A stretch of DNA of 64,000 nucleotides from Minisyncoccota bacterium (GCA_041665625.1 JBAYIK010000001.1:2091-66090), one strand, 5' to 3'; positions 10,348 to 62,107 are shown, counted from the first letter of the stretch. Notes: generated by a model not told the origin, from the letters alone. Translations and numbers: made by a program.

Positions 10348-10367
10348 CAGAAACAAGCTCGTGTGAA

Positions 10368-12043: not shown

Positions 12044-12071
12044 CTCGGAAGTTGTAAGAAAGGAAAAGGTT

Positions 12072-16433: not shown

Positions 16434-16435
16434 AC

Positions 16436-17509: not shown

Positions 17510-17547
17510 TACCTGGCCCTTCCTTTCAACCTCTAACCTGTAACCCC

Positions 17548-17586
17548 CCGCCTGCTGAGCTTTGCTCGGCAGGCGGTTTCTTTTTG
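17548..17586 (+). terminator. Rho-independent terminator.
   Basis: Stem CCGCCTGC...GCAGGCGG followed by TTTCTTTTT. Confidence 0.7.
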
Positions 17587-17666
17587 GCTTTACTTAGAAA
17601 GTTTTTAATGTTAGTAATTAGCCAGGTTTGAACAAATATGGGTTTTAACAGAAGAGGAATTAGCTC

Positions 17667-19688: not shown

Positions 19689-19698
19689 ACTTAAAAAT

Positions 19699-20613: not shown

Positions 20614-20654
20614 TTATTTGTAACTAGTTGTATAATTAAGAGGTAAATATATCT

Positions 20655-22127
20655 GTGAAATATATTAAACTTTTTCTTTTAATTTTAGTCCTCTGCCCGA
20701 TAATTACTCTCGCCGCTGATCTTAGAGTTAGTGTGAGCAAGAGTGAGGTTGTTGTCGGTGAATTAATCTCGGCCCGTATTCTTGTGAGCACTCCAGATCA
20801 AGCCGCCAACGCGCTCTCGGGAGTCCTTAGCTTTAACCCTAGCAAGCTACAAGTCGTCTCGTTGTCTAAGGCTGGTTCGGTTGTTAACCTTTGGGTCACT
20901 GAACCGGATTTTTCTAATGCCAAGGGGCAGGTCTCTTTTGAAGGGGCTATTTTGAACCCCGGCTTTACAGGGAGTTCTGGTTCAGTCCTCACTATTAATT
21001 TCAAAGCGAAGGAAACTGGTGTCGCTACCCTATCCTTTGCTAATGGTTCAGTCTTGGCCAATGATGGCTCGGGTACCAGTATTCTCAACAAGCTCGGTCA
21101 AGCAACTCTCTCTATCAAAGCGCTTGCTCCAAAAATCGAACCAGTTATCCCCGAAGAAGCCGTAGAGCCTCCTGTTCCTGCTTCAGTCGCTAAGGTCTCT
21201 ACCACTGTGCCCGGTGCTCCGGTTATCTCTTCGCCGACTCACTTCGATCAGACTAAATGGTATAGCAATCGTTTTCCTAAATTATCTTGGACCTTGCCTG
21301 ATGATGTGACAGATGTTAGTTTTTTGCTTAATGATGAGAAGACAAGCAATCCTGGGACTAAGAGTGATGGTCTTTTTAATGATTATACGGCCGACAATGA
21401 AGTTCCGGATGGCCTTTGGTATTTCCATCTTCGTTTCAAGAATAGTAAAGGTTGGGGTCCTGTTTCGCACTTTACCCTTAATATCGATGGGACGCCCCCT
21501 AACCGTCTAGAGGTAGAAGAAAAAACTTTAGATGACCTAAATTATAAAACGAGTTTTATTTTTGACGGCTCTGATGAACTCTCAGGTCTTTCTCAATATG
21601 AATTTATTGTTGACAACTTAAAACCAGAAATTATTTTGGCTGATAAAGCCCACCTCTATGAGACGCCCGCTCTTTCGTCAGGCAATCACACCTTAACTAT
21701 TCGGGCCGTTGACCAAGCGGGGAATAGTTTAGAGAAAAAAGTTAATTTTGATATCATTTCCCCTCTCACTAAGGCTTCATTTTATCGTTGGGGGAGTAAC
21801 TTAGTTATTATTTTGTCAGTTTTGGTTCCGCTTCTGGCACTTTTATTTGCCTTGCTTTATGTTCTATTGATCGCTTGGCGCAAGGTGGCCAAACTTAAGC
21901 GCAGTCTGCGTCAGGAGGTGGATGAAGTTGAGGACCATATACACGAAGCCTTCGACTTTATTCGTGAAGATCTGCGAGAGCAGGTTAAACTTATTGAGAA
22001 GACAAAGGGCAAGCGCAAGCTCACCTTGTTGGAGAATAAAATTATGCGAAAATTGCGTAATAATTTGGACGAAACTGAAAAATATATCAAGAAAGATATT
22101 GAGGAAATTGCCGAGAAGGTAAAATAA
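20655..22127 (+). CDS. Cohesin-like domain membrane protein: signal peptide, cohesin-like domain, a beta-rich region, a TM helix, and a charged cytoplasmic coiled-coil tail.
   Basis: 'LSGVLSFNPSKLQVVSLSKAGSVVNLWVTEP...GQVSFEGAIL...SVLTINFKAKETGVATLSFANGSVL'. TM 'LVIILSVLVPLLALLFALLYVLLIAW'. GTG start. Confidence 0.55.
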   Translation: MKYIKLFLLILVLCPIITLAADLRVSVSKSEVVVGELISARILVSTPDQAANALSGVLSFNPSKLQVVSLSKAGSVVNLWVTEPDFSNAKGQVSFEGAILNPGFTGSSGSVLTINFKAKETGVATLSFANGSVLANDGSGTSILNKLGQATLSIKALAPKIEPVIPEEAVEPPVPASVAKVSTTVPGAPVISSPTHFDQTKWYSNRFPKLSWTLPDDVTDVSFLLNDEKTSNPGTKSDGLFNDYTADNEVPDGLWYFHLRFKNSKGWGPVSHFTLNIDGTPPNRLEVEEKTLDDLNYKTSFIFDGSDELSGLSQYEFIVDNLKPEIILADKAHLYETPALSSGNHTLTIRAVDQAGNSLEKKVNFDIISPLTKASFYRWGSNLVIILSVLVPLLALLFALLYVLLIAWRKVAKLKRSLRQEVDEVEDHIHEAFDFIREDLREQVKLIEKTKGKRKLTLLENKIMRKLRNNLDETEKYIKKDIEEIAEKVK

Positions 22128-22211
22128 AAGTTCTTACTTAGTTATCCCCTAAGAAACTCTCTTTTTGCTTAATAAATAACATTAATATTTGCTATAATAT
22201 AAGCAAACTTT

Positions 22212-28200: not shown

Positions 28201-29111
28201 CGGTCTATTCTAATAACGGGGTACTCACCAATGTTAATCCCTCATCTCGCACTTACAAGAATAATATCGTTGATACTAATCTCAATATTGATGCTTTATT
28301 AGGATTACAGATTAAATCTTTTAATTGGAATAAGTCTGGGCAAGCCGATTTTGGCCTCATCGCTGAAGAAGTTAAATCTGCTGTCCCTGAGCTTTATCTT
28401 GAGAGCAATGGGGTTAAGGGTTACCGGGCAGATCATTTACCTTTCTATTTATTGCAGATTGCCCAGAGGCAAGAAGCGGATCTTAATGAATTAAGGAGTA
28501 AGCTTGATTCTTTAACGGGCTCTAGTGTGCCGATTAGCTTAACTGAAGAAGGTCTTATTGATCCAGCGTTGTTTACTGTTTCTACTTCAAGCTTAAATAT
28601 TTCTACGACAACGGAAGAGCTTTCTACTTCTACTGCTTTCTCAATTCTCTCAGATCGTTTGCTTTCTGGATTGACGACAGTTAAGGATCTTGTCTCTGAA
28701 CGAATGGTCGCGATGGTTGGCCTCTTCGATTATGTTAAATCCAAACTCGTTGAGACTGATGTCCTCCGTGTTCAGAAGGGGATGGAGATTAAAGATTCTG
28801 CTACTGGCGAGATTTACTGCGTGCTAATTGTTAATGGTGAGTGGAAGAAGACAAAGGGCCAGTGTTCTGATACTTCTGCTATTCCCCCTCTTGTTCAACC
28901 CGATACTCCTGTTGCACCTCCTTTGATAATAGTAGAGACAGGGAGCAGTACCCCAAGCGTAGATACCAGCACTTCTACTTCCCTAGAGCTTATCTCTCCA
29001 CCTGAACCTGTCACCACTGTTGAACCCAATCTCGAACCTGCCCCTGTTCCTGAACCTAGCCCCGATCCTGCTGAGACCTTGAACGAGACGATACTTGCCC
29101 CTGAAGTTTAA
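22212..29111 (+). CDS. Giant (2299 aa) secreted fibre-like surface protein with tail-fibre-type G(I/V)GTxxP repeats, three internal ~75-aa repeats, and a C-terminal intramolecular-chaperone (peptidase S74 / endosialidase-chaperone-like) autoprocessing domain.
   Basis: Signal peptide ...FSSASA. Repeats 'NVGIGTENPTNALVVNG', 'LVGLGTTTPDSNLNVFG', 'NMGIGTTTPTSKLVVSG'. C-terminal 'NPSSRTYKNNIVDTNLNIDALLGLQIKSFNWNKSGQADFGLIAEEVKSAVPELY' matches the S74 'SDxRLKxNI...GfIAQEVeevxPElV' consensus. Pro-rich tail. Confidence 0.7.
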   Translation: MFFCWQNFFRNRRFLAIVFLLFFSLQFFVFSSASAATGVPQIMSYQGRLANSAGDLVGGTGAIYSFKFSLWDNATVGSGSRVWPATSPTAFTSTVRQGLFNVNIGDTDNGYPDALNYDFSQNNKIYLQIEVSSDGITYETLGPRQPITSAPFAQVAGSVYGSGISTMGGLVVNGNSTTTSLAIAGLANTYLAVNGLGQVIATTSPAFSFSELDPYYSVASSSLLHYGTTSDALTEGLVNKFYTQAKVWTDIVASSTFQTFSNYWTKTGDDLSYLTGDVSVGTSSSASTFNIQALAGASALNIASSTGASMFTVASNGNVGIGTENPTNALVVNGTASASLFLGQVRGTLWLSSAADIGFNRLSAGVATVNGTAGSSALRPLIASNFFTGTTTTSSQVGILNIATTTGDSYLFVGNTGLVGLGTTTPDSNLNVFGTTNTFLRVASSTNQNIFVIDGSGDLSATGNLAMTGAVTGSNLNVTNWNTAYGWGDWATGVWASSTLSTLFANASTAFSWGDHSLLGYLTNALFDTRLAATTSLPNLATLAGLTDIGSASATTTIGGSSRFIVGANGNVGIGTSTPSEVLSVVGNSIFGTRNNITNFASSFGITSYSAIIGSADTDKPGLVLGDFDGTKNRRSAIYLDNSYPATVFRSTYSTGGSPNWVFYNGSVGIGTTTPLAKLDIAGTLGSTADLFNVSSTTEANVVSSLFKIASDGKVTVGATLNLSALSDSYLSVNSLGQVIATSTPLLSFDETDPYYTAASSTLLRYGNSSDVLTEGVINKFYTQAKVWDDIVASTTFQAFANYWTKVGNDLNYLTGNVAVGTTTFDGTNPEKFLVDAGNTSSVNGLVVRGSIDNYFQMNIKNSSGGTNASTDIVATGDTGNEGTGFIDMGINSSGYTGGIVGLANDTYLYGSSTGNMLIGNASAGKNLIFFTNGANGYTNEKMRISSSGFVGIGNWSPTQALEVGSTTAGLNGIFNATLGAELTPTFDAGNWTGTNGWSATGSTLEKVTNATAGTITPSGAGATPAIGTTYQITITTSAKGAAAVTYTYGGVTGTTIVVGTFTDYITAVTAGKLIITGAISSTATITGVSIKALTNNTGDLTVFGDIKLGSRITNPNGTLGLEISPTGAAVFGSTVNAAGRITGAGLAAGGTVTGVTSLAHSLAITGTVPTLYVSTDGYILTAAASTGVTSTLVPLSISPRIRQVGQAWDIDSAANVLNNYWSEVIAYPGTTTVNSKLSWFYSQGAMAAAAEYQAPEIMNYYNGSLNVLGSTYGDEVLTNGALATPGAEWSVSATGFTLNGSAAVYVHHASGGTLTQPSTSFDPPVKANRWYRFTWTSSALNTTARAYIDPTGISAERVYLRGTVVTAGTYTVTFKTNSNPGNFIITADSNSSGDGFTLDDLSLVEVNSGNVVANGLFTGGGTEGLKIDNNGLVGIGTSTPDSELNIFGNNTTFLRVASSTNQNIFVIDSSGNVSLSGNLTLGNLNGPLQAINGLVSATSSIGSGYLSGNVMLEGENISLLNNDANYLAYGTSSDALTEGLVNEFYTQAKVWTDIIASSTFQTFANYWTKTGDDLGYLVGNVGIGTTTNMSNKLTIDGGDGSISGLEIRNLGTATKGIDLSNSGLSGATDYPIYIGASQYWTASNVLRASVGSFSSDHSALDYRPFGTNSDLVYWLKNDANKFSFENTAGLEVASISSAGVASTTGLQVNGNSFLTGTLSIGTTSVDSTFSLQALAGVSALNIASSTGASMLYVSNSGYVGIGNNDPSYPLTVTGDIVALGTNNITLSTVSGSIYAAGGLVNNVTANNSRVRSPTTGAIIDRNVADSNPALTVNQAWNGAASTGDLLRLQYDSVNKIVVDYSGNMGIGTTTPTSKLVVSGASTSPLAYFADDNNNSLQITSQTLGLALEGHTTALGPDISFVGVKDSFAIINSPSASVYEALGATNTIGMSFSNSALNVSADITFEDVLGQLKLRSDYIELDSANGVTVTDLNVNGAVYSNNGVLTNVNPSSRTYKNNIVDTNLNIDALLGLQIKSFNWNKSGQADFGLIAEEVKSAVPELYLESNGVKGYRADHLPFYLLQIAQRQEADLNELRSKLDSLTGSSVPISLTEEGLIDPALFTVSTSSLNISTTTEELSTSTAFSILSDRLLSGLTTVKDLVSERMVAMVGLFDYVKSKLVETDVLRVQKGMEIKDSATGEIYCVLIVNGEWKKTKGQCSDTSAIPPLVQPDTPVAPPLIIVETGSSTPSVDTSTSTSLELISPPEPVTTVEPNLEPAPVPEPSPDPAETLNETILAPEV

Positions 29112-46363: not shown

Positions 46364-48025
46364 ATGGATAAGGATGGATTAAGACTGATGGCCCTGTCTG
46401 CTCCCCATTGGGTTAAAAAGGGAACAGCTGAGAGTAACAGTTTGAACTCTTGGAGCCCTTTTTCTTTGCAAAATGCGGTTAGGCTGGCTGCTGGGAGGGC
46501 TCTGTCAGGTGAAGGATATTTAGGCCAATCTAACTGGTCCTCGAAGGAAGGTTTGAGAGACACTGTTTTTATGATGGAATATTGGGAGGAAGAGAAGAAA
46601 AAATTGGAACAAAAACTTCGTGAGTCTCGTCCCCATGTTTTGTTTATTGGAGCAATGACCCTAGCTTTCCCCGGAGCTATCCAAGTGGCGAGGCTGGCTA
46701 AAGAAATTCTAGGAGAAGAAGTTCTAATCGTTCTTGGGGGAAAACATTCCAACGAAACTTTTTTTGAGGAGCGCAAGTCGCAATCAGAGCCTCAAACGAG
46801 CGAGGTAAAAGCCCTAAAGAACACAAAAGGATCCCCCCTCAGTCTTATAGAGAGCGGTAAAATCGACAATATTTTTGATCTGGTCTGTTCCGGCTCATCG
46901 GAGGAACTTATCGCCACTATCGCTGAAAGAGTTGGAGAATTAGTGGCCCAAGGACTTAATCCAAGAGAAGTTCGTTCTGAGATCGAGAGTTTGGTAAAAG
47001 TTATTCCGGGTGACTGGAGGGCTGGCTGGGTAGAAAGTGGGGGGATCAAACAATTTCAAAGTAATAAAATTCCAATTAACTTTAACGAAATGCCGATCCC
47101 AGCAGAACTCTTTGGCATCAATGGTAAGTTTGAAGTCTATGGCAGAGATTTAACCGCGCACGCTTTTAGTGATACTTCCCCGGGCTGTGTCTTTGATTGC
47201 TTTTTTTGTAGCGAGAGGAATACTCTTAATGGCCCTCTGCATGATCGAGAACACTCTGCCGATAGGTTGTTTAGACAATTGAAGGCAATTAAGGATGTTG
47301 CCAATAAAGAAAATTCGACTGATTCTGTCTCGGTTTTTGTTGAGGACTCAACCCTTTTAAATATTGGTAAAAATCCCACCCAACTTTATCGTCTTGCCGA
47401 TTTGATGAGAGCTGAAAGTTTTAAGATTAGTTTTGGTGGTCAATTTACTATTGATCAAATTCTAGATCCAGAAATCCAGGAAGCAATTTTAGTTCTTAAA
47501 GAGTTTGGCTTGTCCTACGTTTTTCTGGGGATAGAAACCGGCGACAACGAAATTGCTAAACAAATGTCCAAGAATCTTGAAAAAGATTCTGGCTGGACCG
47601 ATAAAAATGAGCAGGCCATGTTTTTCCTGCAGGAGGCTGGGATTAATTGTGGAGCGGCTGTTCTTTTGGGCCTTGGGGAAAATCAGGAAACCCGAGTCGA
47701 ACAATTGGATAGGATTAAAGATTGGCAACGAAGATTTGGACAGCCTGTAGTTGTTAGTTTGAACCTTGCCACTATCCATCCATCTCGAGACGAAGGTCTT
47801 GACGAAGAATTTATTGAATGGGGGACACCTGCCGACTCTCCATACCTAGAGATGTTTCAAAAAATATTTGGAGAAGCTTCTACCCGCTATGCTATAGACA
47901 AAGAACATTTGCCAAGTCTTTCTGAATTAGCTGAAATAAAAGAAAAATATCGAGAACTAGAATTACACCAGGAAAATCGTTCTGAACCTATTTCAATTTT
48001 AGAAAATAAAACAAAATTTAATTAA
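46364..48025 (+). CDS. B12-binding-domain radical SAM protein.
   Basis: N-terminal Rossmann-like 'VLFIGAMTLAFPGAIQVARLAKEILGEEVLIVLGGKH'. CX3CX2C cluster 'CVFDCFFC'. Confidence 0.65.
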   Translation: MDKDGLRLMALSAPHWVKKGTAESNSLNSWSPFSLQNAVRLAAGRALSGEGYLGQSNWSSKEGLRDTVFMMEYWEEEKKKLEQKLRESRPHVLFIGAMTLAFPGAIQVARLAKEILGEEVLIVLGGKHSNETFFEERKSQSEPQTSEVKALKNTKGSPLSLIESGKIDNIFDLVCSGSSEELIATIAERVGELVAQGLNPREVRSEIESLVKVIPGDWRAGWVESGGIKQFQSNKIPINFNEMPIPAELFGINGKFEVYGRDLTAHAFSDTSPGCVFDCFFCSERNTLNGPLHDREHSADRLFRQLKAIKDVANKENSTDSVSVFVEDSTLLNIGKNPTQLYRLADLMRAESFKISFGGQFTIDQILDPEIQEAILVLKEFGLSYVFLGIETGDNEIAKQMSKNLEKDSGWTDKNEQAMFFLQEAGINCGAAVLLGLGENQETRVEQLDRIKDWQRRFGQPVVVSLNLATIHPSRDEGLDEEFIEWGTPADSPYLEMFQKIFGEASTRYAIDKEHLPSLSELAEIKEKYRELELHQENRSEPISILENKTKFN

Positions 48026-48029
48026 AATC

Positions 48030-48296
48030 ATGACCGCAATTAAAATAATTACCGTTATCCTTTCCCTTGTTGTTACTGGCCTGGGGCTAACGTCGCAAGT
48101 TAGAAAGAACCATAAAAGGAAGACAATGGAGGGTCTGTCTTTCTTTTACTTTTCAATTCTCGCCGTCTCCTACACCTTCTGGAGTATATACGGTTTCTCT
48201 CAAAAAGATCTTGTCTTAATTATTCCTATGACCTTAGGGGCAATTATGTCCTGGGTGGTTGTTGCTCAGTTTGGTTTATATAAAAAAGGTAAGTAG
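48030..48296 (+). CDS. Small 3-TM PQ-loop / SemiSWEET-like membrane protein.
   Basis: 88 aa; the pattern 'LTSQVRKN....S..YF....S.TFWSIYGFSQKDLVLIIPMTLGAIMSWVVV' aligns with bacterial SemiSWEETs, with SQV in place of PQV. Confidence 0.45.
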   Translation: MTAIKIITVILSLVVTGLGLTSQVRKNHKRKTMEGLSFFYFSILAVSYTFWSIYGFSQKDLVLIIPMTLGAIMSWVVVAQFGLYKKGK

Positions 48297-48299
48297 ATA

Positions 48300-48780
48300 A
48301 AAGATAACTTGCTGTAATTAAAATTTTGGGGTAAAGTTTGTTCAGACTGGTCTTAGGGTTTGAACAATGGGCGAAAGGAGACTTCCCATGTGGTTTCGAT
48401 TCGTTCCCAAGAGGAGAGCCTCGACGATGACTCTTCTCTTTATTCGATTCTGGGACTTGCCTCCCGGGATGAAGTTTTTCTTAAACGAGCGTGGTTTGGG
48501 CGGCTGCTACACAAAAGCCGAGAACCCGAATCGCCGAAGGAACGCCCAGCACTTTCGTAGGGGCTGTGTCTGGAGGACCCGGCAGGTCAAATCATATGCT
48601 GGGGTTTATGTTGACAAGGCCGAGTGGGATCGGCATGCCAACGGCCTCGTAGCGGAGATTGAGAGGCGCTTTGCTTCAGCGCCATGAATTCGTCTCGGGG
48701 TGAGAAAACGGGTAAGGGTCACCGGTGCGCTTCGTCGCGCCGGTGGCTATTTTGTTTATTATTGCGAAAAGTCGGAAAAT
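48300..48780 (+). ncRNA. GC-rich, apparently non-coding and highly self-complementary region. Candidate structured RNA of unknown class.
   Basis: ORFs here (48360..48560, 48367..48687) translate to Arg/Trp-rich low-complexity peptides. Multiple hairpins; ends in CACCGGTGCGC...GCGCCGGTG plus T-run (48712-48760). Confidence 0.3.
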
Positions 48781-53357: not shown

Positions 53358-53707
53358 CCAAGTTTTCCACTTTTTGTCATTGCCACTTTTTTAGTTGGTG
53401 GTACTATTTAATTAGATTGCACATGCGTGCGGTCCGACGAAATGTTGGTTGGGCCAAGACGCTCAACCCGGCAGCAAACTGGAGGATCCAGGCTCTATGA
53501 AGACGGCAATGACGGCGAAGTTTGACGGCATGACATTCGTGGGCGGCATCGAGCAGACGTTCAGCAGCGCGGCGTGCGTGGTGAGCTGAACAACGCGAAG
53601 AAGGGGAGGCACGTCCGCTAGATGGGACGTTGCCTTGCTACTAAAGAAGACCCCCGATGAGGCAGTGTGCCGTCGGGGGTTTCGATTTTTTATATTTAAT
53701 TTTCTAA

Positions 53708-54476: not shown

Positions 54477-54507
54477 ATTGACAATTATTACTTAAATAAG
54501 TATAAAT
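54477..54507 (+). promoter_or_regulatory. Sigma70 promoter TTGACA-N17-TATAAA.
   Basis: 'ttgacaattattacttaaataagtataaat'. Confidence 0.5.
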
Positions 54508-54569
54508 GTGGGTGGAATCTTTGTCTGTCAAACCAAAACGAGCTCGAGAGAGCGAGAAGGAGACTTTGT

Positions 54570-55200
54570 CATGTTTCTTGGTACTCACTGGGTTGTCTGG
54601 ATTCTTATTCTGGCCTGCTGCCTTGTCAGCGCACGCCTCGCTGGGTTGACTTCCCAAAAATTGGATCAGTGGAAGATTCGGAAAGATCGACTCCGGCGAA
54701 TGGCTGACATGCCGGCTCTCTTCCTCTCTGGGGCCACTGTTTCGCGTGGCGAAGCGGTGAATTTTCACCGTTGGCTTGAGCAGGGGCTTAAGCTTCCGAA
54801 GGCTTGGGGAATCATCGACCGGGAGAAGTTCTCAGCCTGGCTTTTGGATTCGGGGAACCGAGCCAAGGTTACCTGTACCATTGAGGCCCTCAGGCGAGGG
54901 AAACTCGGGATGTTCACCCCCACGTTTGATGGTCTTGGTCGGGCCGTCGTTAGCCGGGTTTCTGAACTTGGCTTTACACTGGAAGACTTTGACCTGACTG
55001 TTACGGGTGTTGAGGATATGGTGAAGTCGGCCAAGGTCGCCTGGGCCAAAGAGGAAGCCAGGAAAATTGGCTGCTCACTGTCAAACCTCAGGATTCAAAA
55101 GCAGTCCCTGAAGGAGACGGTTGAGGGTTGGGGCTTTCCCCTCGCATGCGAAGAGCTTGGACTCCGTGACATTGTGAACAGTGATTTCTGGGATTTGTAA
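54570..55200 (+). CDS. Hypothetical membrane-anchored protein, GC-rich.
   Basis: AGGAG RBS before MFLGTHWVVWILILACCLV. Followed by a strong GC hairpin terminator. Confidence 0.5.
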
Positions 55201-55221
55201 GCCCCCTGTCATTTCTTGCCC

Positions 55222-55258
55222 CCCCCGGCGCGCGAACGCGCCGGGGGATTGTTTTTTC
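55222..55258 (+). terminator. Rho-independent terminator.
   Basis: CCCCGGCGCG-cgaa-CGCGCCGGGG followed by ATTGTTTTTTC. Confidence 0.8.
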
Positions 55259-55294
55259 TATAATTAATTATGGTTTTGTGGTAAGTTAGGGAAA

Positions 55295-56074
55295 ATGAAA
55301 AAAGATTTTAAAAAAGAAATTGAATGGATTAAGAAAGATAAGTATCCAGATGAGCCTAGCGAAGTCCGACTTCGGGCTCACCTGAAGTCGGACTTCGCTA
55401 GGCTGGGAAAAGGCGAACCAATTGATTATATCATTGGGTGGAAGGAATTTTTGGGTTGTAAAATTGATTTGAGTGAGAAGCCGTTAATTCCAAGGGAAGA
55501 AACGGAATTTTGGGTGGGGGAGGCAATTAAAGAAATTCCCAAGGACTCTCCTTTGGGGCCCTCTCAAGGAAAGTCCTTTGGAATTAGGGCTCTCGATATT
55601 TTTGCTGGCTCTGGTTGCATTGGCCTAGCTGTTTTGAATCATTGTCCTGAGCTGAAGATGACCTTTGCTGATAAAGAAGAAAAATGTATAAAGCAGATTA
55701 AGAAAAATTTGAAACTCAATAAACTTAGAGGGAAAGTCATTCAATCAGATCTTTTTAAAGGGCTCGGTAAATTCGACATCATTTTTGCTAATCCTCCTTA
55801 TATCCCAACCAAGAAATCTAAAGTGCAAAAGTCTGTTAAAAACTGGGAACCCAAGGAGGCTCTTTGGGCGGGGGCAGACGGCCTCTTGATTATTAAGAAA
55901 TTTTTTAAAGAAGCAAAAGGTCACCTGAATCCTAATGGTAAAATTTACCTAGAATTTGGCTATGGCCAGAAAAAAGCCATCGAAGATCTTTTAAAACAAA
56001 AGGGGTATAAGTCTTGGGAATTTAAAAAAGACCAATTTGGCCGCTTCCGAGTGGCTAAAATTATCGGTGGATAA
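55295..56074 (+). CDS. prmC: Release-factor glutamine N5-methyltransferase (HemK/PrmC).
   Basis: 'GEPIDYIIGWKEFLGCKIDL', 'LDIFAGSGCIGLAV' and 'IFANPPYIP' (NPPY). Contains the in-frame palindromic element at 55354-55403. Confidence 0.85.
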   Translation: MKKDFKKEIEWIKKDKYPDEPSEVRLRAHLKSDFARLGKGEPIDYIIGWKEFLGCKIDLSEKPLIPREETEFWVGEAIKEIPKDSPLGPSQGKSFGIRALDIFAGSGCIGLAVLNHCPELKMTFADKEEKCIKQIKKNLKLNKLRGKVIQSDLFKGLGKFDIIFANPPYIPTKKSKVQKSVKNWEPKEALWAGADGLLIIKKFFKEAKGHLNPNGKIYLEFGYGQKKAIEDLLKQKGYKSWEFKKDQFGRFRVAKIIGG

Positions 56075-56140
56075 GGGTTTTTGTTGCCAAAGGAGGAAAG
56101 TGATACAATAAAGCCATATAAGTTTGATTAAAAATAATAT

Positions 56141-58573
56141 ATGGAAAAAGTAGAAAAGAACAAAGCGTTTATCCTTTGGTTCAATGAATTAGCAATTAGT
56201 GATATCCCACTTGTTGGCGGTAAGAATGCCGCTCTTGGTGAAATGTTTAATAATCTTGTACCTCTTGGTGTTAATATCCCTAATGGTTTTGCTATTACCG
56301 CTTATGCTTACGCTTATTTCCTCGAGAAGACTGGACTTAAACAAAGAATTAAAGAGGTTCTAACTGATCTCAACACTCATAATATTAAAGATTTGCAGAA
56401 ACGTGGGGCAATGGTTCGCGAAATGATTATTAAAGAAGAGTTGCCTGATGAGCTTAAGTCCGAGATTGTTGAGGCCTATCATAAGCTCTCTGGGACCTAT
56501 CATCTTAAGGCTGTCGATGTGGCTGTGCGTTCTTCGGCTACGGCTGAAGACCTTCCCGGTGCTTCTTTTGCTGGTCAGCAGGAAACCTTTTTGAATATCA
56601 ATAGTGATAAAGAGCTAATGCTCGCCGTGCGCAAGTGTATGGCTTCGCTCTTTACTAACCGCGCTATTTCTTACCGTGTTGATAAAGGCTTCTCGATGTT
56701 TGATGTCTTGCTTTCGGTTGGTATTCAGAAAATGGTTCGTAGTGATATTGGTAGCTCCGGTGTGATGTTCTCTATTGATACGGAGACTGGTTTTGATAAA
56801 GTCGTTGTCATCAATGGCGCTTATGGCTTAGGTGAATTTATTGTCTTAGGTCGTGTCACCCCCGATGAATTCTATGTCTTCAAACCATCGCTTGAGCGTG
56901 GTTATAACGCTATTCTCTCGAAGACTCTTGGTAAGAAAGATGTTAAATTGATTTACGACAAGAGAGGGACTAAGAAAGTTAATGTGCCTAAAGCTGATGT
57001 TAATAAATTCTGCCTCAAGGACGACGAAGTGGCCAAGCTTGCTATCTGGGGTGTGACGATTGAGAAATATTTCTCTAAGAAGCGAGGCAAATACCAACCT
57101 ATGGATATGGAGTGGGCCCGTGACGGTAAGACTGGCGAATTATTCATTGTTCAGGCCCGTCCTGAGACTATCCACGCTGATCAGAACAAGGATGTTTATG
57201 AGGAATATGTTATTAAAGAGAAAGGTGTCGAATTAATTAAGGGTACTGCTGTTGGTGCCAAAATTGCTTCTGGCCGCGTTCGTATCATTCGTGATGCCAA
57301 GCAGATGAGCACCTTTAAAGAAGGTGAAATTTTGGTTACTGAGATTACCGATCCTGACTGGGAACCGATCATGAAGATTGCTTCGGCTATTATCACCGAG
57401 AAAGGTGGGAGAACTAGTCATGCTGCCATTGTCTCACGAGAGCTCGGTGTTCCTTGTATCGTTGGTACTGGCAACGCGACCAAGAAATTAAAAAATGGTC
57501 AGCTTGTCACCGTTGATTGCTCGTCTGGTAAAGAAGGTGTTGTTTACGATGGCAAAATTTTGTTCGAGAAAAAGGAGCACCACTTAGATCACTTGCCAAA
57601 GACGAGGACTAAAGTCATGTTGAATATTGGTTCACCTGAAGAAGCTTTCCGTAATTTCTATCTTCCGGTCTCGGGTGTCGGCTTGGGACGCTTGGAATTC
57701 ATCATTAGCTCTTATATTAAAGTTCACCCCAACGCTCTGCTTGATTATAAAACTCTAAAGACGAGTAAAGATCCTCGCGCTAAGAAAGCCGTTAAAGCGA
57801 TTGACGAATTAACAGTAGAGTACGCCAACAAAGCTGATTACTATGTTGGTGAGCTGGCTGAAGGTATTGCTACTATTGCCTCGACCTTCTATCCTGGTGA
57901 AGTTATCTTACGTTTTTCTGATTTCAAAACTAACGAATACAGCACTCTAATTGGAGGAGACATGTATGAGCCAGTTGAAGAAAACCCAATGATTGGTTGG
58001 CGTGGTGCTTCTCGTTACTATGATCCTAAATTCCGTCGCGCCTTTGCCCTTGAATGTCGTGCTATGTATAAAGTGCGCACCGAGATGGGGCTCTCTAATA
58101 TTGTGCCAATGATTCCTTTTTGCCGTACCGTTGAAGAAGCCAAACAAGTAATTGCGATTATGGAAGAAGCGGGCTTGGACCGCAAGGCTGACCCATCGCT
58201 TAAGGTCTATGTGATGTGTGAGATTCCTTCGAACGTGGTGGAGGCCAATGAATTCTTAGATGTCTTCGACGGTATGTCGATTGGTTCTAACGATCTTGCT
58301 CAACTCACTCTTGGTCTTGACCGTGACTCGAACCTTATCAACCATATTGCTAACGAGAACCACCCAGCTGTAAAGAAAATGATTGAAGTGGCTATCAAGG
58401 CGTGTCGTGACCGTAATAAATATATTGGTATTTGTGGCCAAGCCCCGTCTGATTATCCAGAATTTGCCGATTTCTTAGTGAAGGCCGGTATTGGGAGCAT
58501 CTCCCTCTCGCCAGATTCCGTTATCAAAACCCTGTCTATCATTGAAGCCGCGGAGAAAAAATATCCTCAATAA
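56141..58573 (+). CDS. ppsA: Phosphoenolpyruvate synthase (pyruvate, water dikinase).
   Basis: 'AVRSSATAEDLPGASFAGQQETFLN', phospho-His 'GGRTSHAAIVSRELGVPCIVG', and a C-terminal PEP-utilising TIM barrel. Confidence 0.9.
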   Translation: MEKVEKNKAFILWFNELAISDIPLVGGKNAALGEMFNNLVPLGVNIPNGFAITAYAYAYFLEKTGLKQRIKEVLTDLNTHNIKDLQKRGAMVREMIIKEELPDELKSEIVEAYHKLSGTYHLKAVDVAVRSSATAEDLPGASFAGQQETFLNINSDKELMLAVRKCMASLFTNRAISYRVDKGFSMFDVLLSVGIQKMVRSDIGSSGVMFSIDTETGFDKVVVINGAYGLGEFIVLGRVTPDEFYVFKPSLERGYNAILSKTLGKKDVKLIYDKRGTKKVNVPKADVNKFCLKDDEVAKLAIWGVTIEKYFSKKRGKYQPMDMEWARDGKTGELFIVQARPETIHADQNKDVYEEYVIKEKGVELIKGTAVGAKIASGRVRIIRDAKQMSTFKEGEILVTEITDPDWEPIMKIASAIITEKGGRTSHAAIVSRELGVPCIVGTGNATKKLKNGQLVTVDCSSGKEGVVYDGKILFEKKEHHLDHLPKTRTKVMLNIGSPEEAFRNFYLPVSGVGLGRLEFIISSYIKVHPNALLDYKTLKTSKDPRAKKAVKAIDELTVEYANKADYYVGELAEGIATIASTFYPGEVILRFSDFKTNEYSTLIGGDMYEPVEENPMIGWRGASRYYDPKFRRAFALECRAMYKVRTEMGLSNIVPMIPFCRTVEEAKQVIAIMEEAGLDRKADPSLKVYVMCEIPSNVVEANEFLDVFDGMSIGSNDLAQLTLGLDRDSNLINHIANENHPAVKKMIEVAIKACRDRNKYIGICGQAPSDYPEFADFLVKAGIGSISLSPDSVIKTLSIIEAAEKKYPQ

Positions 58574-58579
58574 AATAGT

Positions 58580-59587
58580 ATGGCAAAAATACAATTTTTT
58601 GAATTAGAAGATTGGGAGAAGGAGCACATCAAAAAAGAATCTCTGTCTGGTGAAGTCGAGATTGTTGATGGTGTTTTAGACGAAGCCAAGATTCCTTTTG
58701 ACACCAGTGCCGAGGTCATCTCAATTTTTGTTAACTCGGTGATCAATGAAGGGGTCCTCTCTCGTTTACCTAAACTCAAGTTGATTACTACGCGTTCAAC
58801 CGGCTTCGATCATATCGATATCGCTGCTTGTAAGTCTCACGGCGTGGCGGTGGCGACAGTTCCTTCTTATGGTGAAGATACTGTGGCCGAATACACTTTT
58901 GCTTTAATGCTTAATCTGTCGCGCAAGGTGGGTGAGAGCAGTGAACGTATTAAAGAGACTGGGAGCTTCAGTTTAGATGGGCTACGAGGTTTTGATCTCA
59001 AGGGTAAGACCTTGGGTGTCGTTGGTACCGGTAAAATTGGCAAGAACGTGATTGAAATTGCGACTGGTTTCAACATGAATATTATCGCTTACGATAAATT
59101 CCCTGATGGGGCTTACGCGACGAAGATGAATTATAAATATTTGCCATTTGAGGAGGTCTTGGCACAAGCAGATATTGTTACTCTTCATGTTCCTTATATG
59201 CCAGAAAACCACCACTTAATTAATGCGGACGTTCTTTCTAAAATGAAGAAGGGTGCTTATCTCATCAACACGGCTCGTGGGGCGCTCGTTGAGACTGAAG
59301 CCTTACTAAAGAGCCTCAAGGAGGGTCACTTAGCTGGCGCCGGACTCGATGTCTTGGAAGAAGAAGGTGTGATCAAAGACGAACTTAATTTCTTGGTTGG
59401 AGGGCATCCCGGTGAGCACGACCTTAAAGTTATTTTGGCTGGTCATGCACTTATTGATATGCCTAACGTTATTATCACTCCCCACAACGCTTTCAATACT
59501 TGGGAGGCTCTTCAGCGCATCTTAAATACAACCCTTGATAACATTAAGGGATATATTGCTGGCCAGCCAATAAATTTGATCAAGTAA
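58580..59587 (+). CDS. D-isomer-specific 2-hydroxyacid dehydrogenase (D-lactate / phosphoglycerate dehydrogenase family).
   Basis: NAD motif 'LGVVGTGKIGKNV'. Catalytic 'NTARGALV...HNAFNT'. Confidence 0.8.
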   Translation: MAKIQFFELEDWEKEHIKKESLSGEVEIVDGVLDEAKIPFDTSAEVISIFVNSVINEGVLSRLPKLKLITTRSTGFDHIDIAACKSHGVAVATVPSYGEDTVAEYTFALMLNLSRKVGESSERIKETGSFSLDGLRGFDLKGKTLGVVGTGKIGKNVIEIATGFNMNIIAYDKFPDGAYATKMNYKYLPFEEVLAQADIVTLHVPYMPENHHLINADVLSKMKKGAYLINTARGALVETEALLKSLKEGHLAGAGLDVLEEEGVIKDELNFLVGGHPGEHDLKVILAGHALIDMPNVIITPHNAFNTWEALQRILNTTLDNIKGYIAGQPINLIK

Positions 59588-59660
59588 CCCCTTGGCATTA
59601 TTTCTCTAAAGGTATAAAGTTTATCTAGACAACAGCCTTTTGAAAGGCAGGAGGTGATTT

Positions 59661-59816
59661 ATGGATTCCCTCGCGTTTCTGCTGGCTCTTTTGTGGAATT
59701 GGGTGACCTCAGGCTTCCATCGAATCGTTGAGGCCTTGTCGCCTTCCGTCCCCCCTGAAACCTCTGATGAGAAGAGAAGGGGTGAAATCACGGATTCCTT
59801 TAGATGGGAACCGTAA
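59661..59816 (+). CDS. GC-rich small ORF (51 aa). Low confidence.
   Basis: RBS GGAGGTG; N-terminal hydrophobic 'LAFLLALLWNWV'. Confidence 0.25.
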   Translation: MDSLAFLLALLWNWVTSGFHRIVEALSPSVPPETSDEKRRGEITDSFRWEP

Positions 59817-59879
59817 CTCGTCTTGAACCAGGTTGGGCAGAAAGTCTTGCCTCGGTCGAAGGCGGGTTTTCTGTTTCGG

Positions 59880-59920
59880 AATAAAAAAGCATGCCCCGGA
59901 CCTGTGGAAGGTCCGGGGCA
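59880..59920 (-). terminator. Terminator for the minus-strand SixA-like gene.
   Basis: GCCCCGGACC-tgtggaa-GGTCCGGGGC, with a T-run on the minus strand (plus-strand 'aataaaaaagc'). Confidence 0.7.
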
Positions 59921-59938
59921 GTGTTCGTCTCGTTGCTC

Positions 59939-60421
59939 TCAGATTGGGGGTCTGAGAATTTTGGTCTGCTGACCATTGGCCATCACTATCGCTTGACCTG
60001 GCTCAAGGTCTAGATCTTGGATATCCTCGACCGTGGAGAAAGCCGTCATTCGCCAGAAGTAAGTGGCAATACTCTTGGCGAATGGCTTGTGGGTGACAAG
60101 AATGAGTATCACCGCCCCTTCTTTTTCCTTGGCGTCGAGAATCTCCTTGACCCTCCCATAGTTGAAATGACGCGTGACATCTTGGTTGAGGACGTCGGAC
60201 GTCTCCAGTTTGGCGTGGAGAACTTCCTCCAAGATCTGGGCCGTCTCCACAGCCCGATTGGCCGTGGAGCTGACAATGGTCACGGGGTATTCTCCCACGA
60301 CTTCCTTGAGCTCCTCGGCCAGAGCCCAAGCCTGCTCTCGGCCGTATTCACTCAAGCGATCGGTCTTCAACTCTGGATCTCCGTCATAGGCACAATGCCT
60401 TGCGGCGACAATGTCTTTCAT
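59939..60421 (-). CDS. Histidine-phosphatase-superfamily protein (SixA / phosphohistidine-phosphatase-like), GC-rich.
   Basis: Catalytic 'ARHCAYD' RHG-type motif; about 160 aa. Confidence 0.65.
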   Translation of the reverse strand: MKDIVAARHCAYDGDPELKTDRLSEYGREQAWALAEELKEVVGEYPVTIVSSTANRAVETAQILEEVLHAKLETSDVLNQDVTRHFNYGRVKEILDAKEKEGAVILILVTHKPFAKSIATYFWRMTAFSTVEDIQDLDLEPGQAIVMANGQQTKILRPPI

Positions 60422-60518
60422 AATATCGTCTCCTTTTTGCCAAAGGGCAAAGGTTTCTTTCTGGCTTCATTTATACACGAATATTGTCTTGTGTCTAGCT
60501 TATTGCTAAGATACCCTT

Positions 60519-61682
60519 GTGAAAGAATTTGGCTTTAAAATTGAGAAGAAGATTCCTGGGCGCTTAGGGCGGGCTGGGGTTATTACGACGCCACACGGGG
60601 AGATTAAAACCCCAGCTTTTGTGACGGTGGGAACTAAGGCGACGGTTAAGGCTTTGACTCCTGAGATGGTGAATTCGCTTGGCGCCCAAGTCGTGCTCGC
60701 TAATACTTATCATTTATATCTTCAACCCGGTGATGATCTGGTCGCCAAGGCTGGTGGCCTCCACAAATTTATGAATTGGCAGGGACCAATGATGACCGAC
60801 TCCGGCGGCTTCCAAGTTTTCTCGCTTGGTGCGGCTTTTGGTGAAGGGGGAGTATCTAAATTTGCTAAAGAAGGTGTACAGAAGATTGAAGAACTAGCTA
60901 AAGAAGATGACGTTACTGTGAAGTTAGCCAAGATAGATGAAGATGGTGTCACTTTCAAATCGCACATTGATGGTTCCCTTCATCGCTTCACTCCGGAGCG
61001 TTCGATGCAGATTCAACATAACTTAGGCGCGGATATTATCTTCGCTTTTGATGAATGCACTTCGCCGTCGGCTGATTATGATTATCAGAAGCAGGCAATG
61101 GAACGAACTCATCGTTGGGCAAAAAGAAGTCTCGATGAACACAAAAAAATAAAAGCAGGCGAGCAAGCTTTATTTGGTATTGTTCAAGGCGGCCGGCATC
61201 AAGATTTGCGTGAAGAGTCAGCCAGGGTTATTGGTGGCATGGACTTCGATGGCTTTGGCATTGGTGGCTCATTTGATAAAGAAGATATGGGGACCGCTGT
61301 TGGTTGGGTCTCGGCAATACTTCCCGAAAACAAACCTCGTCACTTGCTTGGCATTGGTGAACCGGAAGATATTTTGGAGGGGATTAAGAATGGGGCCGAC
61401 ACTTTTGATTGTGTTACTCCCACTCGTATGGCTAGAAACGGTACTTTGATGGTGAAGGGAGGTAGACTTAATATCTTGAATGCCCAATATCGCGAAGATT
61501 TCACTCCGATTGAAGAGGGTTGCGGTTGTTATACTTGCCAACATTATACTCGTGCTTATCTTGCCCACCTCTTCCGCGCTAAAGAAATGTTGGCCGGAAC
61601 TTTAGCCTCGGTTCACAATCTCTACTTCTTAATCCATTTGACAGAACAGATCAGACAAGATATTTTAGAGGGCAGAATGTAG
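60519..61682 (+). CDS. tgt: Queuine tRNA-ribosyltransferase.
   Basis: 'MTDSGGFQVFSLG' and the zinc site 'CGCYTCQHY'. GTG start. Confidence 0.9.
   Translation: MKEFGFKIEKKIPGRLGRAGVITTPHGEIKTPAFVTVGTKATVKALTPEMVNSLGAQVVLANTYHLYLQPGDDLVAKAGGLHKFMNWQGPMMTDSGGFQVFSLGAAFGEGGVSKFAKEGVQKIEELAKEDDVTVKLAKIDEDGVTFKSHIDGSLHRFTPERSMQIQHNLGADIIFAFDECTSPSADYDYQKQAMERTHRWAKRSLDEHKKIKAGEQALFGIVQGGRHQDLREESARVIGGMDFDGFGIGGSFDKEDMGTAVGWVSAILPENKPRHLLGIGEPEDILEGIKNGADTFDCVTPTRMARNGTLMVKGGRLNILNAQYREDFTPIEEGCGCYTCQHYTRAYLAHLFRAKEMLAGTLASVHNLYFLIHLTEQIRQDILEGRM
61638..61682 (+). repeat. Direct repeat copy 1 (the 3' end of tgt); a diverged copy sits at 62063-62107.
   Basis: TTTGACAGAACAgatcagacaagATATTtTAGAGGGCAGAATGTA versus TTTGACAGAACAaattaggaatgacATATTAGAGGGCAGAATGTA. 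Confidence 0.7.
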
Positions 61683-61729
61683 CTTGTGATTAAACTCCTC
61701 GCTTTTGCGAGAAACCGGAGGACAAGGCT

Positions 61730-62002
61730 GTGAACGTAAAAGGATATCTGTTTGAGAAGTGGCCAACGTTGGTCATGGTCGTGGTTATCATCGCTGTCGG
61801 TGTTTTGTTTTACACCACACGGGAGACCAACCCGGCTTTCTTTATCCACGAGACAACCTTCAACCGCGAATTGGCGGCCGGTCAACTCCACCGAGACGGT
61901 TCGTATACTTTCTTCCATGCGAATCGTTCTCGTGACGGTCGGCTGATCGTTACGAGCGAGATTGCCAGCTTCCCGGCCGCCGAGGCGGCCAAGCTTCACT
62001 AA
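61730..62002 (+). CDS. GC-rich small membrane protein (90 aa) between the direct repeats.
   Basis: TM 'WPTLVMVVVIIAVGVLFY'. Followed by terminator 62020-62065. Confidence 0.45.
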   Translation: MNVKGYLFEKWPTLVMVVVIIAVGVLFYTTRETNPAFFIHETTFNRELAAGQLHRDGSYTFFHANRSRDGRLIVTSEIASFPAAEAAKLH

Positions 62003-62019
62003 GGCCTTCGTGCCTTCTT

Positions 62020-62065
62020 CGCCCCGTCGCTCGCTGTAAGGTGAGCCACGGGGCGGTTTTTGTTT
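62020..62065 (+). terminator. Rho-independent terminator.
   Basis: CGCCCCG...CGGGGCG followed by GTTTTTGTTT. Confidence 0.7.
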
Positions 62066-62107
62066 GACAGAACAAATTAGGAATGACATATTAGAGGGCA
62101 GAATGTA
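62063..62107 (+). repeat. Direct repeat copy 2 (a duplicated tgt 3'-end segment).
   Basis: See 61638. Confidence 0.7.

What the first reader, a model, noticed from the sequence alone, without database searches (positions are those of the whole stretch)
54500..60480. Additional single-gene GC-rich patches at 54500-55260 and 59600-60480, each closed by a GC hairpin terminator
The patches are a membrane protein at 54570-55200 (terminator CCCCGGCGCG/CGCGCCGGGG), and a SixA-like histidine phosphatase (minus strand) plus a 51-aa sORF at 59661-60421 sharing a bidirectional GC hairpin. Together with the islands at 8.3-13.3 kb, 16.0-18.1 kb, 48.3-48.8 kb, 53.4-53.7 kb and 61.7-62.6 kb, this gives at least seven compositionally foreign insertions in 64 kb. 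That is a striking rate of gene gain for a reduced genome. If the donor is the episymbiont's host lineage, these genes record host-to-symbiont transfer.
Basis: partly seen in the sequence, partly recalled or inferred. Interest (0 to 1): 0.55.

Follow-up and report, generated by a model that had tools for sequence, protein, structure and literature searches.

The report
GC-rich accessory gene cassettes
Two short GC-rich stretches in a Paceibacterota (CPR) genome are real, self-contained accessory genes: one is old and shared with sister species and one is a recent 0.6-kb insertion at the start of the tgt gene, and their closest relatives lie in other CPR bacteria, not in any identifiable host.

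Summary
The patch genes have third-codon-position GC (GC3) of 0.58-0.64, against 0.405±0.046 for 43 background genes. The two main hairpins are strong terminators. Three independent assemblies are 100% identical to the window across patch 2, and one also across patch 1, so chimerism is excluded.

Patch 1 encodes a 209-aa membrane-anchored helical protein. It sits in the same PPIase|PrmC slot in two other species (63% and 45% identity). Its promoter, ribosome-binding site and terminator are conserved there, and the orthologs are equally GC-rich. It therefore predates the split of three species.

Patch 2 has two parts of different age. The 51-aa sORF cassette is shared with the sister species. 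The histidine-phosphatase cassette is a 628-bp insertion found only here. It enters five bases into tgt and supplies a new GTG start. The phosphatase keeps its catalytic residues, and its nearest relatives (≤40% identity) are ~150-aa proteins, one cluster from Candidatus Daviesbacteria.

No homologs were found in host-candidate lineages, phages or viral contigs. The GC-richness shows no sign of decaying. Nearby, duplicated tgt 3' ends flank further cassettes, which suggests recombination with DNA from related lineages. This is ordinary accessory-gene turnover, with two unexplained features: the stable GC-richness and the tgt hotspot.

The parts
54478..54506 (+). Sigma-70-like promoter of the 209-aa gene: TTGACA, 17 nt, TATAAA.
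   Evidence: Read from the sequence. The -35 hexamer and most of the -10 are conserved in the L004 and L006 orthologous loci.
54571..55200 (+). Patch 1 CDS, 209 aa. N-terminal hydrophobic helix plus an all-helical soluble part. Orphan family restricted to this clade. GC 0.54, GC3 0.60.
   Evidence: AAGGAGA lies 7 nt upstream. No Pfam or NCBIfam match. Orthologs P0003 (63%) and P0004 (45%) sit in the same PPIase|PrmC slot. dN/dS is 0.20. There are 78 invariant columns. AF2 model pLDDT 83, all-alpha, with no fold match in PDB or BFVD.
55222..55257 (+). Intrinsic terminator of the 209-aa gene: 11 G-C pairs plus a T-run.
   Evidence: dG -27.5, z -4.4. Conserved in L004 and L006, where the sequence differs but the arms still pair.
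59592..59654 (+). Promoter-like site (TTGGCA, 17 nt, TAAAGT) and GGAGG ribosome-binding site of the sORF.
   Evidence: The region is nearly identical in L004.
59661..59816 (+). 51-aa sORF with a hydrophobic N-terminus, GC3 0.58. Ortholog of a 65-aa ORF in L004.
   Evidence: BLASTP E = 2e-5 to L004:15212-15409. dN/dS 0.34. The L004 copy has GC3 0.65. Absent from L008, L092, L094 and L095, where 2HADH and tgt abut.
59846..59876 (+). The sORF's own terminator: 7-pair stem plus a T-run.
   Evidence: dG -15.6, z -2.5. Conserved in L004 directly upstream of tgt.
59896..60523 (.). 628-bp insertion specific to this species: terminator, phosphatase gene and promoter region. It entered after 'ATGCC' of the ancestral tgt start.
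   Evidence: Alignments of both junctions to L004. Present in three independent assemblies.
59892..59920 (-). Intrinsic terminator of the phosphatase gene: 12 pairs, T-run on the minus strand only.
   Evidence: dG -26, z -6.1.
59939..60421 (-). 160-aa histidine-phosphatase-superfamily (branch 1) protein of SixA-like size. GC3 0.64.
   Evidence: PF00300 36.2 bits against a cutoff of 21.7. R8, H9, R56 and H111 are invariant in a 25-sequence alignment. AGGAG lies 8 nt upstream of the ATG.
60519..61682 (+). tgt (queuine tRNA-ribosyltransferase). Its first two codons (GTG AAA) were rebuilt by the insertion; L004 has ATG CCA.
   Evidence: PF01702.
61637..62107 (+). Context outside the finding. Two 45-nt copies of the tgt 3' end (61637-61681 and 62063-62107, 84% identical) bracket the GC-rich 90-aa gene and precede the 121-aa gene.
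   Evidence: By my reading of the sequences, 6 of the 7 differing codons are synonymous. Each copy holds a TTGACA-17-TATTTT/CATATT promoter-like site.

Best explanation
Both patches are autonomous accessory-gene cassettes. Each has its own sigma-70-like promoter, ribosome-binding site, one small ORF and its own intrinsic terminator (strong for the two larger genes), and each lies in an intergenic slot between conserved housekeeping genes of a Candidatus Paceibacterota (CPR) genome. They arrived at different times.

(1) The 209-aa membrane-anchored helical protein was fixed before three species of the clade diverged and has been kept by purifying selection.

(2) The 51-aa sORF cassette was gained in the common ancestor of this species and its sister.

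(3) The histidine-phosphatase cassette is a recent 628-bp insertion found only in this species. It landed five bases into tgt and supplies tgt with a new in-frame GTG start, and presumably a promoter.

The phosphatase is probably an active enzyme of the histidine-phosphatase superfamily. It would work through a phospho-His9 intermediate, with R8, R56 and H111 in the active site. Its substrate is unknown.

The most likely source of these cassettes is other Patescibacteria, not a host (inferred). The likely route is uptake of DNA followed by recombination anchored in conserved genes, that is, homology-facilitated illegitimate recombination or single-crossover integration (inferred). The duplicated tgt ends 1-2 kb downstream are the evidence for this route.

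The high GC content is a stable property of this class of cassette in this clade and does not mark recent arrival. Its cause is unresolved.
For: Organism. NCBI names the proteins 'Candidatus Paceibacterota bacterium'.

Age of patch 1. Orthologs lie in the identical PPIase|gene|PrmC slot in L004 (215-kb contig) and L006. Promoter, UTR, ribosome-binding site and terminator are conserved. dN/dS is 0.20, while flanking genes show dS of 0.8-1.8. More distant relatives hold an unrelated normal-GC gene (L094, L095) or have no room for a gene (L091) in that slot.

Patch 2. The sORF is shared with L004 only. The phosphatase is missing from L004, and both junctions are mapped to the base.

Enzyme. Pfam PF00300 scores above its cutoff, and the catalytic R8/H9/R56/H111 are invariant.

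Relatives. All are at or below 40% identity and about 150 aa long. One cluster is from Candidatus Daviesbacteria. Three homolog-bearing contigs carry the gene at their own native GC of 0.33, 0.41 and 0.50.

GC stability. Orthologs have GC3 of 0.59-0.62 against flanks of 0.37-0.44 in all three species. Codons whose amino acid has changed still have GC3 of 0.55-0.77 in five GC-rich genes, against 0.28-0.57 in flanking genes.

Recombination route. The 45-nt tgt 3' end is repeated with mostly synonymous differences. L004 carries a 1.59-kb insertion with a 123-nt tgt 3' duplication and a third, more divergent tgt end.

Literature. 83% of inferred transfers into Patescibacteria come from other Patescibacteria (PMC12455944). 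The com DNA-uptake genes are conserved across CPR, and natural transformation has been demonstrated in Saccharibacteria (PMC10633639).
Against: No donor has been identified for any cassette. The intra-CPR origin of the phosphatase rests on distant relatives (≤40% identity), and only one cluster carries a taxonomic name.

Patches 1 and 2 themselves show no flanking duplication, integrase or tRNA gene, so the recombination route is extrapolated from the neighbouring tgt 3' region.

Only two other species of the clade could be examined, and one of them on a 2.4-kb contig.

Why the cassettes are GC-rich is not explained. A polarised test of synonymous changes gave 9 GC-to-AT against 7 AT-to-GC. 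It is underpowered, and by my own estimate it is biased by parsimony artefacts with so distant an outgroup.

The function of the 209-aa protein is unknown. Its model rests on 3 sequences.
Confidence: 0.6

Rival explanations
1. Host-to-episymbiont transfer. The GC-rich genes were taken recently from the genome of the organism this CPR bacterium lives on and still carry the host's composition.
For: The composition is atypical. CPR bacteria are often episymbionts and carry DNA-uptake genes (PMC10633639). Some transfers from non-CPR phyla into Patescibacteria are reported (PMC12455944).
Against: The 209-aa family has no member outside this clade among 5.8 billion clusters. The phosphatase has no relative above 40% identity among 1.84 billion representatives, and its named relatives are CPR. 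Four of the five shared GC-rich genes predate the species split (the 209-aa gene predates two splits), yet they remain GC-rich. The host is unknown, so there is no composition to match.
Confidence: 0.07
2. At least for the 209-aa gene and the sORF, these are not foreign DNA. They would be lineage-born or long-resident genes whose high GC is actively maintained, for example by selection on the mRNA or protein, GC-biased gene conversion at recombination-prone slots, or repeated exchange with a GC-rich allele pool.
For: GC3 is about 0.6 in three species, although flank dS is 0.8-1.8. Variable codons are as GC-rich as conserved ones. The family is confined to the clade. The low-GC tgt 3' ends that travel with GC-rich cassettes imply that the cassettes were GC-rich inside low-GC donors too.
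Against: More distant relatives carry a different gene, or have no room for one, in the PPIase|PrmC slot, so the gene did arrive at some point. The boundaries are sharp and adjacent housekeeping genes show no GC rise. No mechanism was tested. The phosphatase is demonstrably an insertion.
Confidence: 0.2
3. The patches are remnants or cargo of a GC-rich mobile element (phage, plasmid or integrative element) that infects this lineage.
For: The units are single-gene and self-contained, turn over quickly, share a common GC level, and duplicate a gene end at tgt in the way an att site would.
Against: tblastn against 50,697 phage records found nothing. IMG/VR scans for the 209-aa family, the phosphatase and the 45-nt repeat found nothing. 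PHROG matches are only marginal (E ≥ 0.002). No integrase, transposase or other mobile-element domain was found in the 30 window proteins scanned, nor in the precomputed annotations of the other genes in 50-64 kb. There are no terminal repeats at the patch 1 or patch 2 junctions.
Confidence: 0.1
4. The patches are an assembly or binning chimera.
For: Sharp compositional boundaries in a metagenome-assembled genome.
Against: Three assemblies made by different pipelines are 100% identical across the patch 2 junctions, and one of them also across patch 1. The patch 1 junctions, including regulatory sequence, are reproduced in two other species.
Confidence: 0.01

Closest known systems
[quoted passage not shown]
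   Same: Atypical composition, presence/absence differences between related genomes, accessory or hypothetical gene content, and a likely intra-CPR source.
   Different: The units here are tiny (0.3-0.9 kb, one gene each) with their own promoter and terminator. Several are old and syntenic in sister species, yet they have not drifted to the host genome's GC.
SixA phosphohistidine phosphatase (TIGR00249; PDB 2rfl) and the histidine-phosphatase superfamily branch 1 (PF00300)
   Same: Size of about 150-160 aa. An RH motif with the catalytic His near the N-terminus (RHC here, where the family has RHG), a second Arg and a second His. The profile match to 2rfl spans profile positions 13-136.
   Different: The TIGR00249 score is 29.8 bits against a cutoff of 74.5. 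The best PDB matches are PGAM5-like and PhoE-like proteins over the N-terminal half only. No HPt or PTS-Ntr partner gene is nearby.
C-terminal displacement and orphan-gene arrays formed by homology-facilitated illegitimate recombination (Vibrio cholerae T6SS effector-immunity arrays, PMC5361080; Rhs loci)
   Same: A conserved anchor gene (here tgt), successive incoming modules that carry their own version of the anchor's 3' end, and older modules and 3'-end remnants pushed downstream.
   Different: The anchor is a housekeeping tRNA-modification gene, not a toxin. The modules are unrelated small ORFs. The repeated 45 nt also reads as a promoter. This was seen next to the finding, not at patches 1 and 2 themselves.
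Integron gene-cassette arrays
   Same: A serial array of single-gene units at one site, separated by a recurring short sequence.
   Different: No IntI integrase and no attC-type imperfect palindromes. The cassettes have their own promoters and terminators. The recurring sequence is a copy of the 3' end of a coding gene.

Membership tests
Histidine phosphatase superfamily, branch 1 (PF00300) | Profile match above Pfam's gathering score | tested here: met
   36.2 bits against a cutoff of 21.7, E = 6e-9.
Histidine phosphatase superfamily, branch 1 (PF00300) | Catalytic RHG-type motif (Arg plus the phospho-accepting His), a second Arg and a second His | tested here: met
   R8, H9 (in RHC), R56 and H111 are invariant in a 25-sequence alignment.
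SixA (TIGR00249 equivalog) | Score at or above NCBIfam's curated cutoff | tested here: not met
   29.8 bits against 74.5. It is SixA-like in size only.
SixA (TIGR00249 equivalog) | Acts on a phospho-His carrier (ArcB HPt domain or NPr) | not testable with these tools
   No such partner gene is near. A biochemical assay would be needed.
Horizontally acquired islet | Composition departs from the resident genome | tested here: met
   GC3 z = +3.7 to +5.1.
Horizontally acquired islet | Absent from the same site in close relatives | tested here: met
   Met for the phosphatase (absent in L004, L008, L092, L094, L095), for the sORF (absent beyond L004), and for the 209-aa gene only beyond the three-species clade.
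Horizontally acquired islet | Mobility hallmarks: integrase, tRNA target or flanking direct repeats | tested here: not met
   None at patches 1 or 2. Direct repeats occur only at the neighbouring tgt 3' end.
Host-to-episymbiont transfer | Closest homologs lie in the host lineage, not in the symbiont's own phylum | tested here: not met
   The 209-aa family occurs only in this clade. The phosphatase's named relatives are CPR, and all relatives are at or below 40% identity.
Host-to-episymbiont transfer | Composition matches the host genome | not testable with these tools
   The host is unknown.
Rho-independent terminator | G+C-rich stem-loop directly followed by a U-run, downstream of a stop codon | tested here: met
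   55222-55257(+) and 59920-59882(-), with z of -4.4 and -6.1 against shuffles.
Integron cassette | IntI integrase, attI/attC sites and promoterless cassettes | tested here: not met
   No integrase in the proteins scanned. The cassettes carry promoters. The repeats are tgt 3' ends.

The most novel reading that the evidence does not exclude
This Paceibacterota clade may maintain a distinct class of small, self-expressed, GC-rich (GC3 about 0.6-0.8) gene cassettes. They would keep their composition indefinitely inside a genome with GC3 of about 0.4 and would be shuffled between related genomes by recombination anchored in the ends of conserved genes. On this reading the 3' end of tgt acts as an integrase-free accretion site. 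Each incoming cassette would bring its own copy of the last 45 nt of tgt, which doubles as a promoter. Composition would then mark a mobile gene pool with its own base-composition equilibrium, not foreign ancestry.
Probability: 0.2. Interest if true: 0.65.

Novelty: new member of a known kind. Interest (0 to 1): 0.4.

Why it matters
The result corrects a tempting inference. In this CPR genome, a GC-rich patch does not mean a recent gift from the host. Several patches are old residents shared with sister species, and the one datable insertion has CPR-type relatives. This matters for attempts to infer the hosts of uncultivated episymbionts from compositional islands.

It also gives a base-resolved example of how a reduced genome gains a gene without mobile-element machinery: the insertion lands in the first codons of tgt and the start codon is rebuilt. 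Finally, it flags a tgt-linked hotspot and an unexplained, stable compositional dichotomy. Both could be tested with a genus-level pangenome.

Tried and rejected
- Chimerism is rejected. Three assemblies are 100% identical to the window.
- Phage or viral origin found no support: tblastn against phage records, IMG/VR scans, BFVD fold search, and only marginal PHROG hits.
- A metagenome scan with the 209-aa alignment found no relatives.
- The GTDB scan with PEP synthase did not return the window's own species. The best hit was 75% identical, and synteny there extends only to the 2HADH|tgt side.
- Naming the organisms behind the phosphatase's nearest hits mostly failed, because the clusters carry no names. 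The exception is Daviesbacteria.
- The polarised synonymous-substitution test for amelioration gave 9 against 7 events. By my own estimate, parallel changes on the long outgroup branch could generate all the AT-to-GC calls, so I do not rely on it.
- A search for flanking repeats or inverted repeats at patches 1 and 2 found none.
- Rfam found no RNA family in any patch.
- Codon adaptation to high expression is considered unlikely. GC1+2, the 5' UTR and the terminators are also GC-rich. No ribosomal-protein genes were available for a direct test.


Full report
**1. The observation**

The window is 44.6% GC. Forty-three ordinary genes have GC3 (GC at third codon positions) of 0.405 ± 0.046, with a maximum of 0.51. 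Twelve genes stand apart at 0.646 ± 0.063 (Mann-Whitney p = 8e-8).

The two patches in this finding belong to the GC-rich set:
- 54571-55200(+): GC 0.54, GC3 0.60, z = +4.2.
- 59661-59816(+): GC3 0.58.
- 59939-60421(-): GC 0.54, GC3 0.64, z = +5.1.

In 200-nt windows the rise is sharp, at about 54,540-55,250 and 59,650-60,425. GC at codon positions 1 and 2, the 5' UTR and the terminators are also elevated, so this is more than a codon-choice effect.

The hairpins at 55222-55247(+) and 59920-59892(-) have 11-12 mostly G-C pairs followed by T-runs. They fold at -27.5 and -26 kcal/mol (z = -4.4 and -6.1; 0 of 200 shuffles as stable).

One correction is needed. The second hairpin has a T-run on the minus strand only. 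The sORF has its own weaker terminator at 59846-59866, so the two genes do not share a bidirectional terminator.

**2. Not an artefact**

The phosphatase protein is encoded on contigs from ENA ERZ27249449 (293 kb), JGI 3300037810 and Logan SRR6484324. These contigs are 100% identical to the window over 14.1, 8.7 and 6.2 kb. All three cover patch 2, and the ENA contig also covers patch 1. NCBI names the organism Candidatus Paceibacterota bacterium.

**3. Patch 1 is an old resident**

The 209-aa protein has an AAGGAGA ribosome-binding site 7 nt upstream and a TTGACA-17-TATAAA promoter at 54478-54506. It matches no Pfam or NCBIfam family. Among 5.8 billion protein clusters it has only two relatives, at 63% and 45% identity.

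Both relatives lie in exactly the same slot, between the PPIase gene and the PrmC-like methyltransferase gene. One is on a 215-kb contig (L004) and one on a 2.4-kb contig (L006) from other samples. They are GC-rich there too, with GC3 of 0.62 and 0.59 against flanks of 0.37-0.44.

Promoter, UTR, ribosome-binding site and terminator are conserved across the three species. The terminator sequence differs between them, yet its arms still pair.

Between the window and L004, housekeeping genes are 77-99% identical in protein, but their synonymous sites are near saturation (dS 0.8-1.8). The 209-aa gene has dN/dS of 0.20 and 78 invariant alignment columns. It is therefore a real protein under purifying selection that predates the split of three species.

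More distant relatives that keep PPIase…PrmC synteny differ at this slot. L094 and L095 carry an unrelated, normal-GC gene of about 240 aa, and in L091 the gap between the two genes leaves no room for a gene. So the gene did enter the slot once, in the clade's ancestor.

An AF2 model (pLDDT 83, from only 3 sequences) is all-helical with a long N-terminal hydrophobic helix. It has no match in PDB or BFVD. 'Membrane protein' is a fair description, but the function is unknown.

**4. Patch 2 is two events**

The sORF, with its promoter, ribosome-binding site and terminator, is shared with L004 as a 65-aa ortholog (E = 2e-5, dN/dS 0.34, GC3 0.65). It is absent from L008, L092, L094 and L095, where 2HADH and tgt are directly adjacent.

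The phosphatase cassette is absent from L004. Alignment of both junctions shows a 628-bp insertion at 59896-60523. It enters after 'ATGCC' of the ancestral tgt start; L004 reads ATG CCA GAA TTC. It ends in '…CTTGTGAA', so tgt now begins GTG AAA GAA TTT. I found no target duplication or terminal repeats.

**5. The phosphatase**

The protein matches PF00300 above the cutoff. R8, H9, R56 and H111 are invariant in an alignment with 24 relatives. This is the catalytic set of the histidine-phosphatase superfamily by established knowledge of that family, so an active enzyme working through a phospho-His intermediate is likely.

It is SixA-like in size, but it scores 29.8 bits against TIGR00249's cutoff of 74.5. 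Its best matches among solved structures are PGAM5-like and PhoE-like proteins, with SixA further down the list. It should not be filed as SixA.

An exhaustive HMMER search of 1.84 billion cluster representatives found 161 relatives. All are at or below 40% identity and most are 145-160 aa long. One cluster holds Candidatus Daviesbacteria (CPR) proteins. Three homolog-bearing contigs have small, densely packed genes, and there the gene has the local, native GC (0.33, 0.41 and 0.50).

**6. The donor question**

No homolog was found in phage records or viral contigs. Nothing points to a host lineage. The published survey of groundwater Patescibacteria finds that 83% of inferred transfers are intra-phylum (PMC12455944).

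**7. GC-richness is not a clock here**

Five GC-rich genes shared with L004 remain GC-rich in both species. Codons whose amino acid has changed since the split still have GC3 of 0.55-0.77, against 0.28-0.57 in the flanking genes. A polarised count of synonymous changes gave 9 GC-to-AT against 7 AT-to-GC. It is underpowered and prone to parsimony bias, so I leave the cause open.

**8. How cassettes get in (context outside the coordinates)**

The last 45 nt of tgt (61637-61681) recur at 62063-62107, bracketing the GC-rich 90-aa gene and preceding the 121-aa gene. By my reading of the sequences, the two copies differ at 7 codons, 6 of them synonymously. The second copy therefore evolved as a tgt coding end in another, closely related and low-GC genome.

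L004 has, besides its own more divergent tgt end, three copies of the 45-nt repeat at cassette boundaries. It also carries a 1.59-kb insertion (a low-GC 477-aa ORF) with a 123-nt tgt 3' duplication. Each repeat also reads as a TTGACA-17-TATTTT/CATATT promoter.

This pattern resembles C-terminal displacement arrays attributed to homology-facilitated illegitimate recombination (PMC5361080). It is also plausible in a phylum with conserved com genes and demonstrated natural transformation (PMC10633639). Extending this route to patches 1 and 2 is an inference.

**9. Rate of turnover**

GC3-high outlier ORFs occur at 7 per 64 kb here and 3 per 20 kb in L004. Across all 93 loci analysed the rate is 32 per 1731 kb, and this clade contributes 12 of those 32. 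Cassette density is therefore unusual, but much of it is shared ancestry and not recent gain.

**10. Verdict**

The patches are a real feature, correctly assembled, and best described as accessory-gene cassettes of mixed age with a probable intra-CPR source. Host-to-symbiont transfer is unsupported. Interest is moderate. The base-resolved insertion into the tgt start, the tgt 3' cassette array and the stable GC dichotomy are the parts worth following up.

Noticed in passing
window 61637-62107; L004 16580-19600: The last 45 nt of tgt are repeated at cassette boundaries: 2 copies in the window, and 3 copies plus a divergent tgt end in L004. The copies differ mostly by synonymous codon changes, and each contains a TTGACA-17-TATTTT/CATATT promoter-like site. 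This looks like serial accretion of single-gene cassettes at the tgt 3' end.
   Followed up: partly
L004 16580-18290: A 1.59-kb insertion carries a low-GC (0.33) 477-aa ORF with no Pfam match. It is flanked by a 123-nt duplication of the tgt 3' end. The displaced downstream fragment is the true ortholog of the window's tgt end.
   Followed up: partly
window 53380-53690: Another GC-rich mini-cassette, absent from L004. It has a promoter-like site (53380-53407), a GGAGGA ribosome-binding site, a 30-aa ORF at 53497-53589 (MKTAMTAKFDGMTFVGGIEQTFSSAACVVS, with a Gly-Gly followed by a Ser/Cys-rich tail) and a terminator around 53641-53690. No gene is called there in the public annotation, and there is no Rfam match.
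   Followed up: partly
window 55353-55404: A 24-nt inverted repeat, 96% complementary with a 4-nt loop, lies inside the PrmC-like gene. It coincides with a 12-aa length difference from the L004 ortholog. It is the only copy in the window. It may be a small palindromic insertion tolerated in frame.
   Followed up: partly
window 8557-13271: The largest GC-rich island (GC3 0.63-0.70) encodes three enzymes in a row: a 596-aa protein with a PPDK_N-like ATP-binding domain, an Orn/DAP/Arg-type PLP decarboxylase and a class I/II aminotransferase. This looks like an acquired small-molecule pathway. No homolog was found in any fetched locus.
   Followed up: no
window 16152-18050: A GC-rich island of three ORFs (93, 357 and 127 aa) with no Pfam match. 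The 93-aa protein has a weak IcmG/DotF-like match (E = 1e-4, far below the cutoff).
   Followed up: no
L094 2347-3159; L095 3043-3840: In more distant relatives the PPIase|PrmC slot holds a conserved, normal-GC gene of about 240 aa (MAKLIFDIETxGE…). To my eye it resembles an RNase H-fold exonuclease, which I did not test. The slot is therefore a recurrent site of gene replacement.
   Followed up: no
window 46364-48687: A B12-binding radical-SAM protein (553 aa, normal GC) is present here but absent from the same position in L004. It lies just upstream of the GC-rich 106-aa gene, whose L004 ortholog is 48% identical.
   Followed up: no
window 18360-29111: A run of large probable surface proteins: Big_6/Big_13 Ig-like domains, a cohesin domain and a 2299-aa ORF. 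These are typical of CPR cell-surface or attachment repertoires and have normal GC.
   Followed up: no
L089 4134-6453: In a contig of about 50% GC with small, densely packed genes, a homolog of the phosphatase (35% identity) lies directly downstream of a frameshifted BipA gene, at native GC. This shows that genomes with a composition matching the patches do carry this family.
   Followed up: partly
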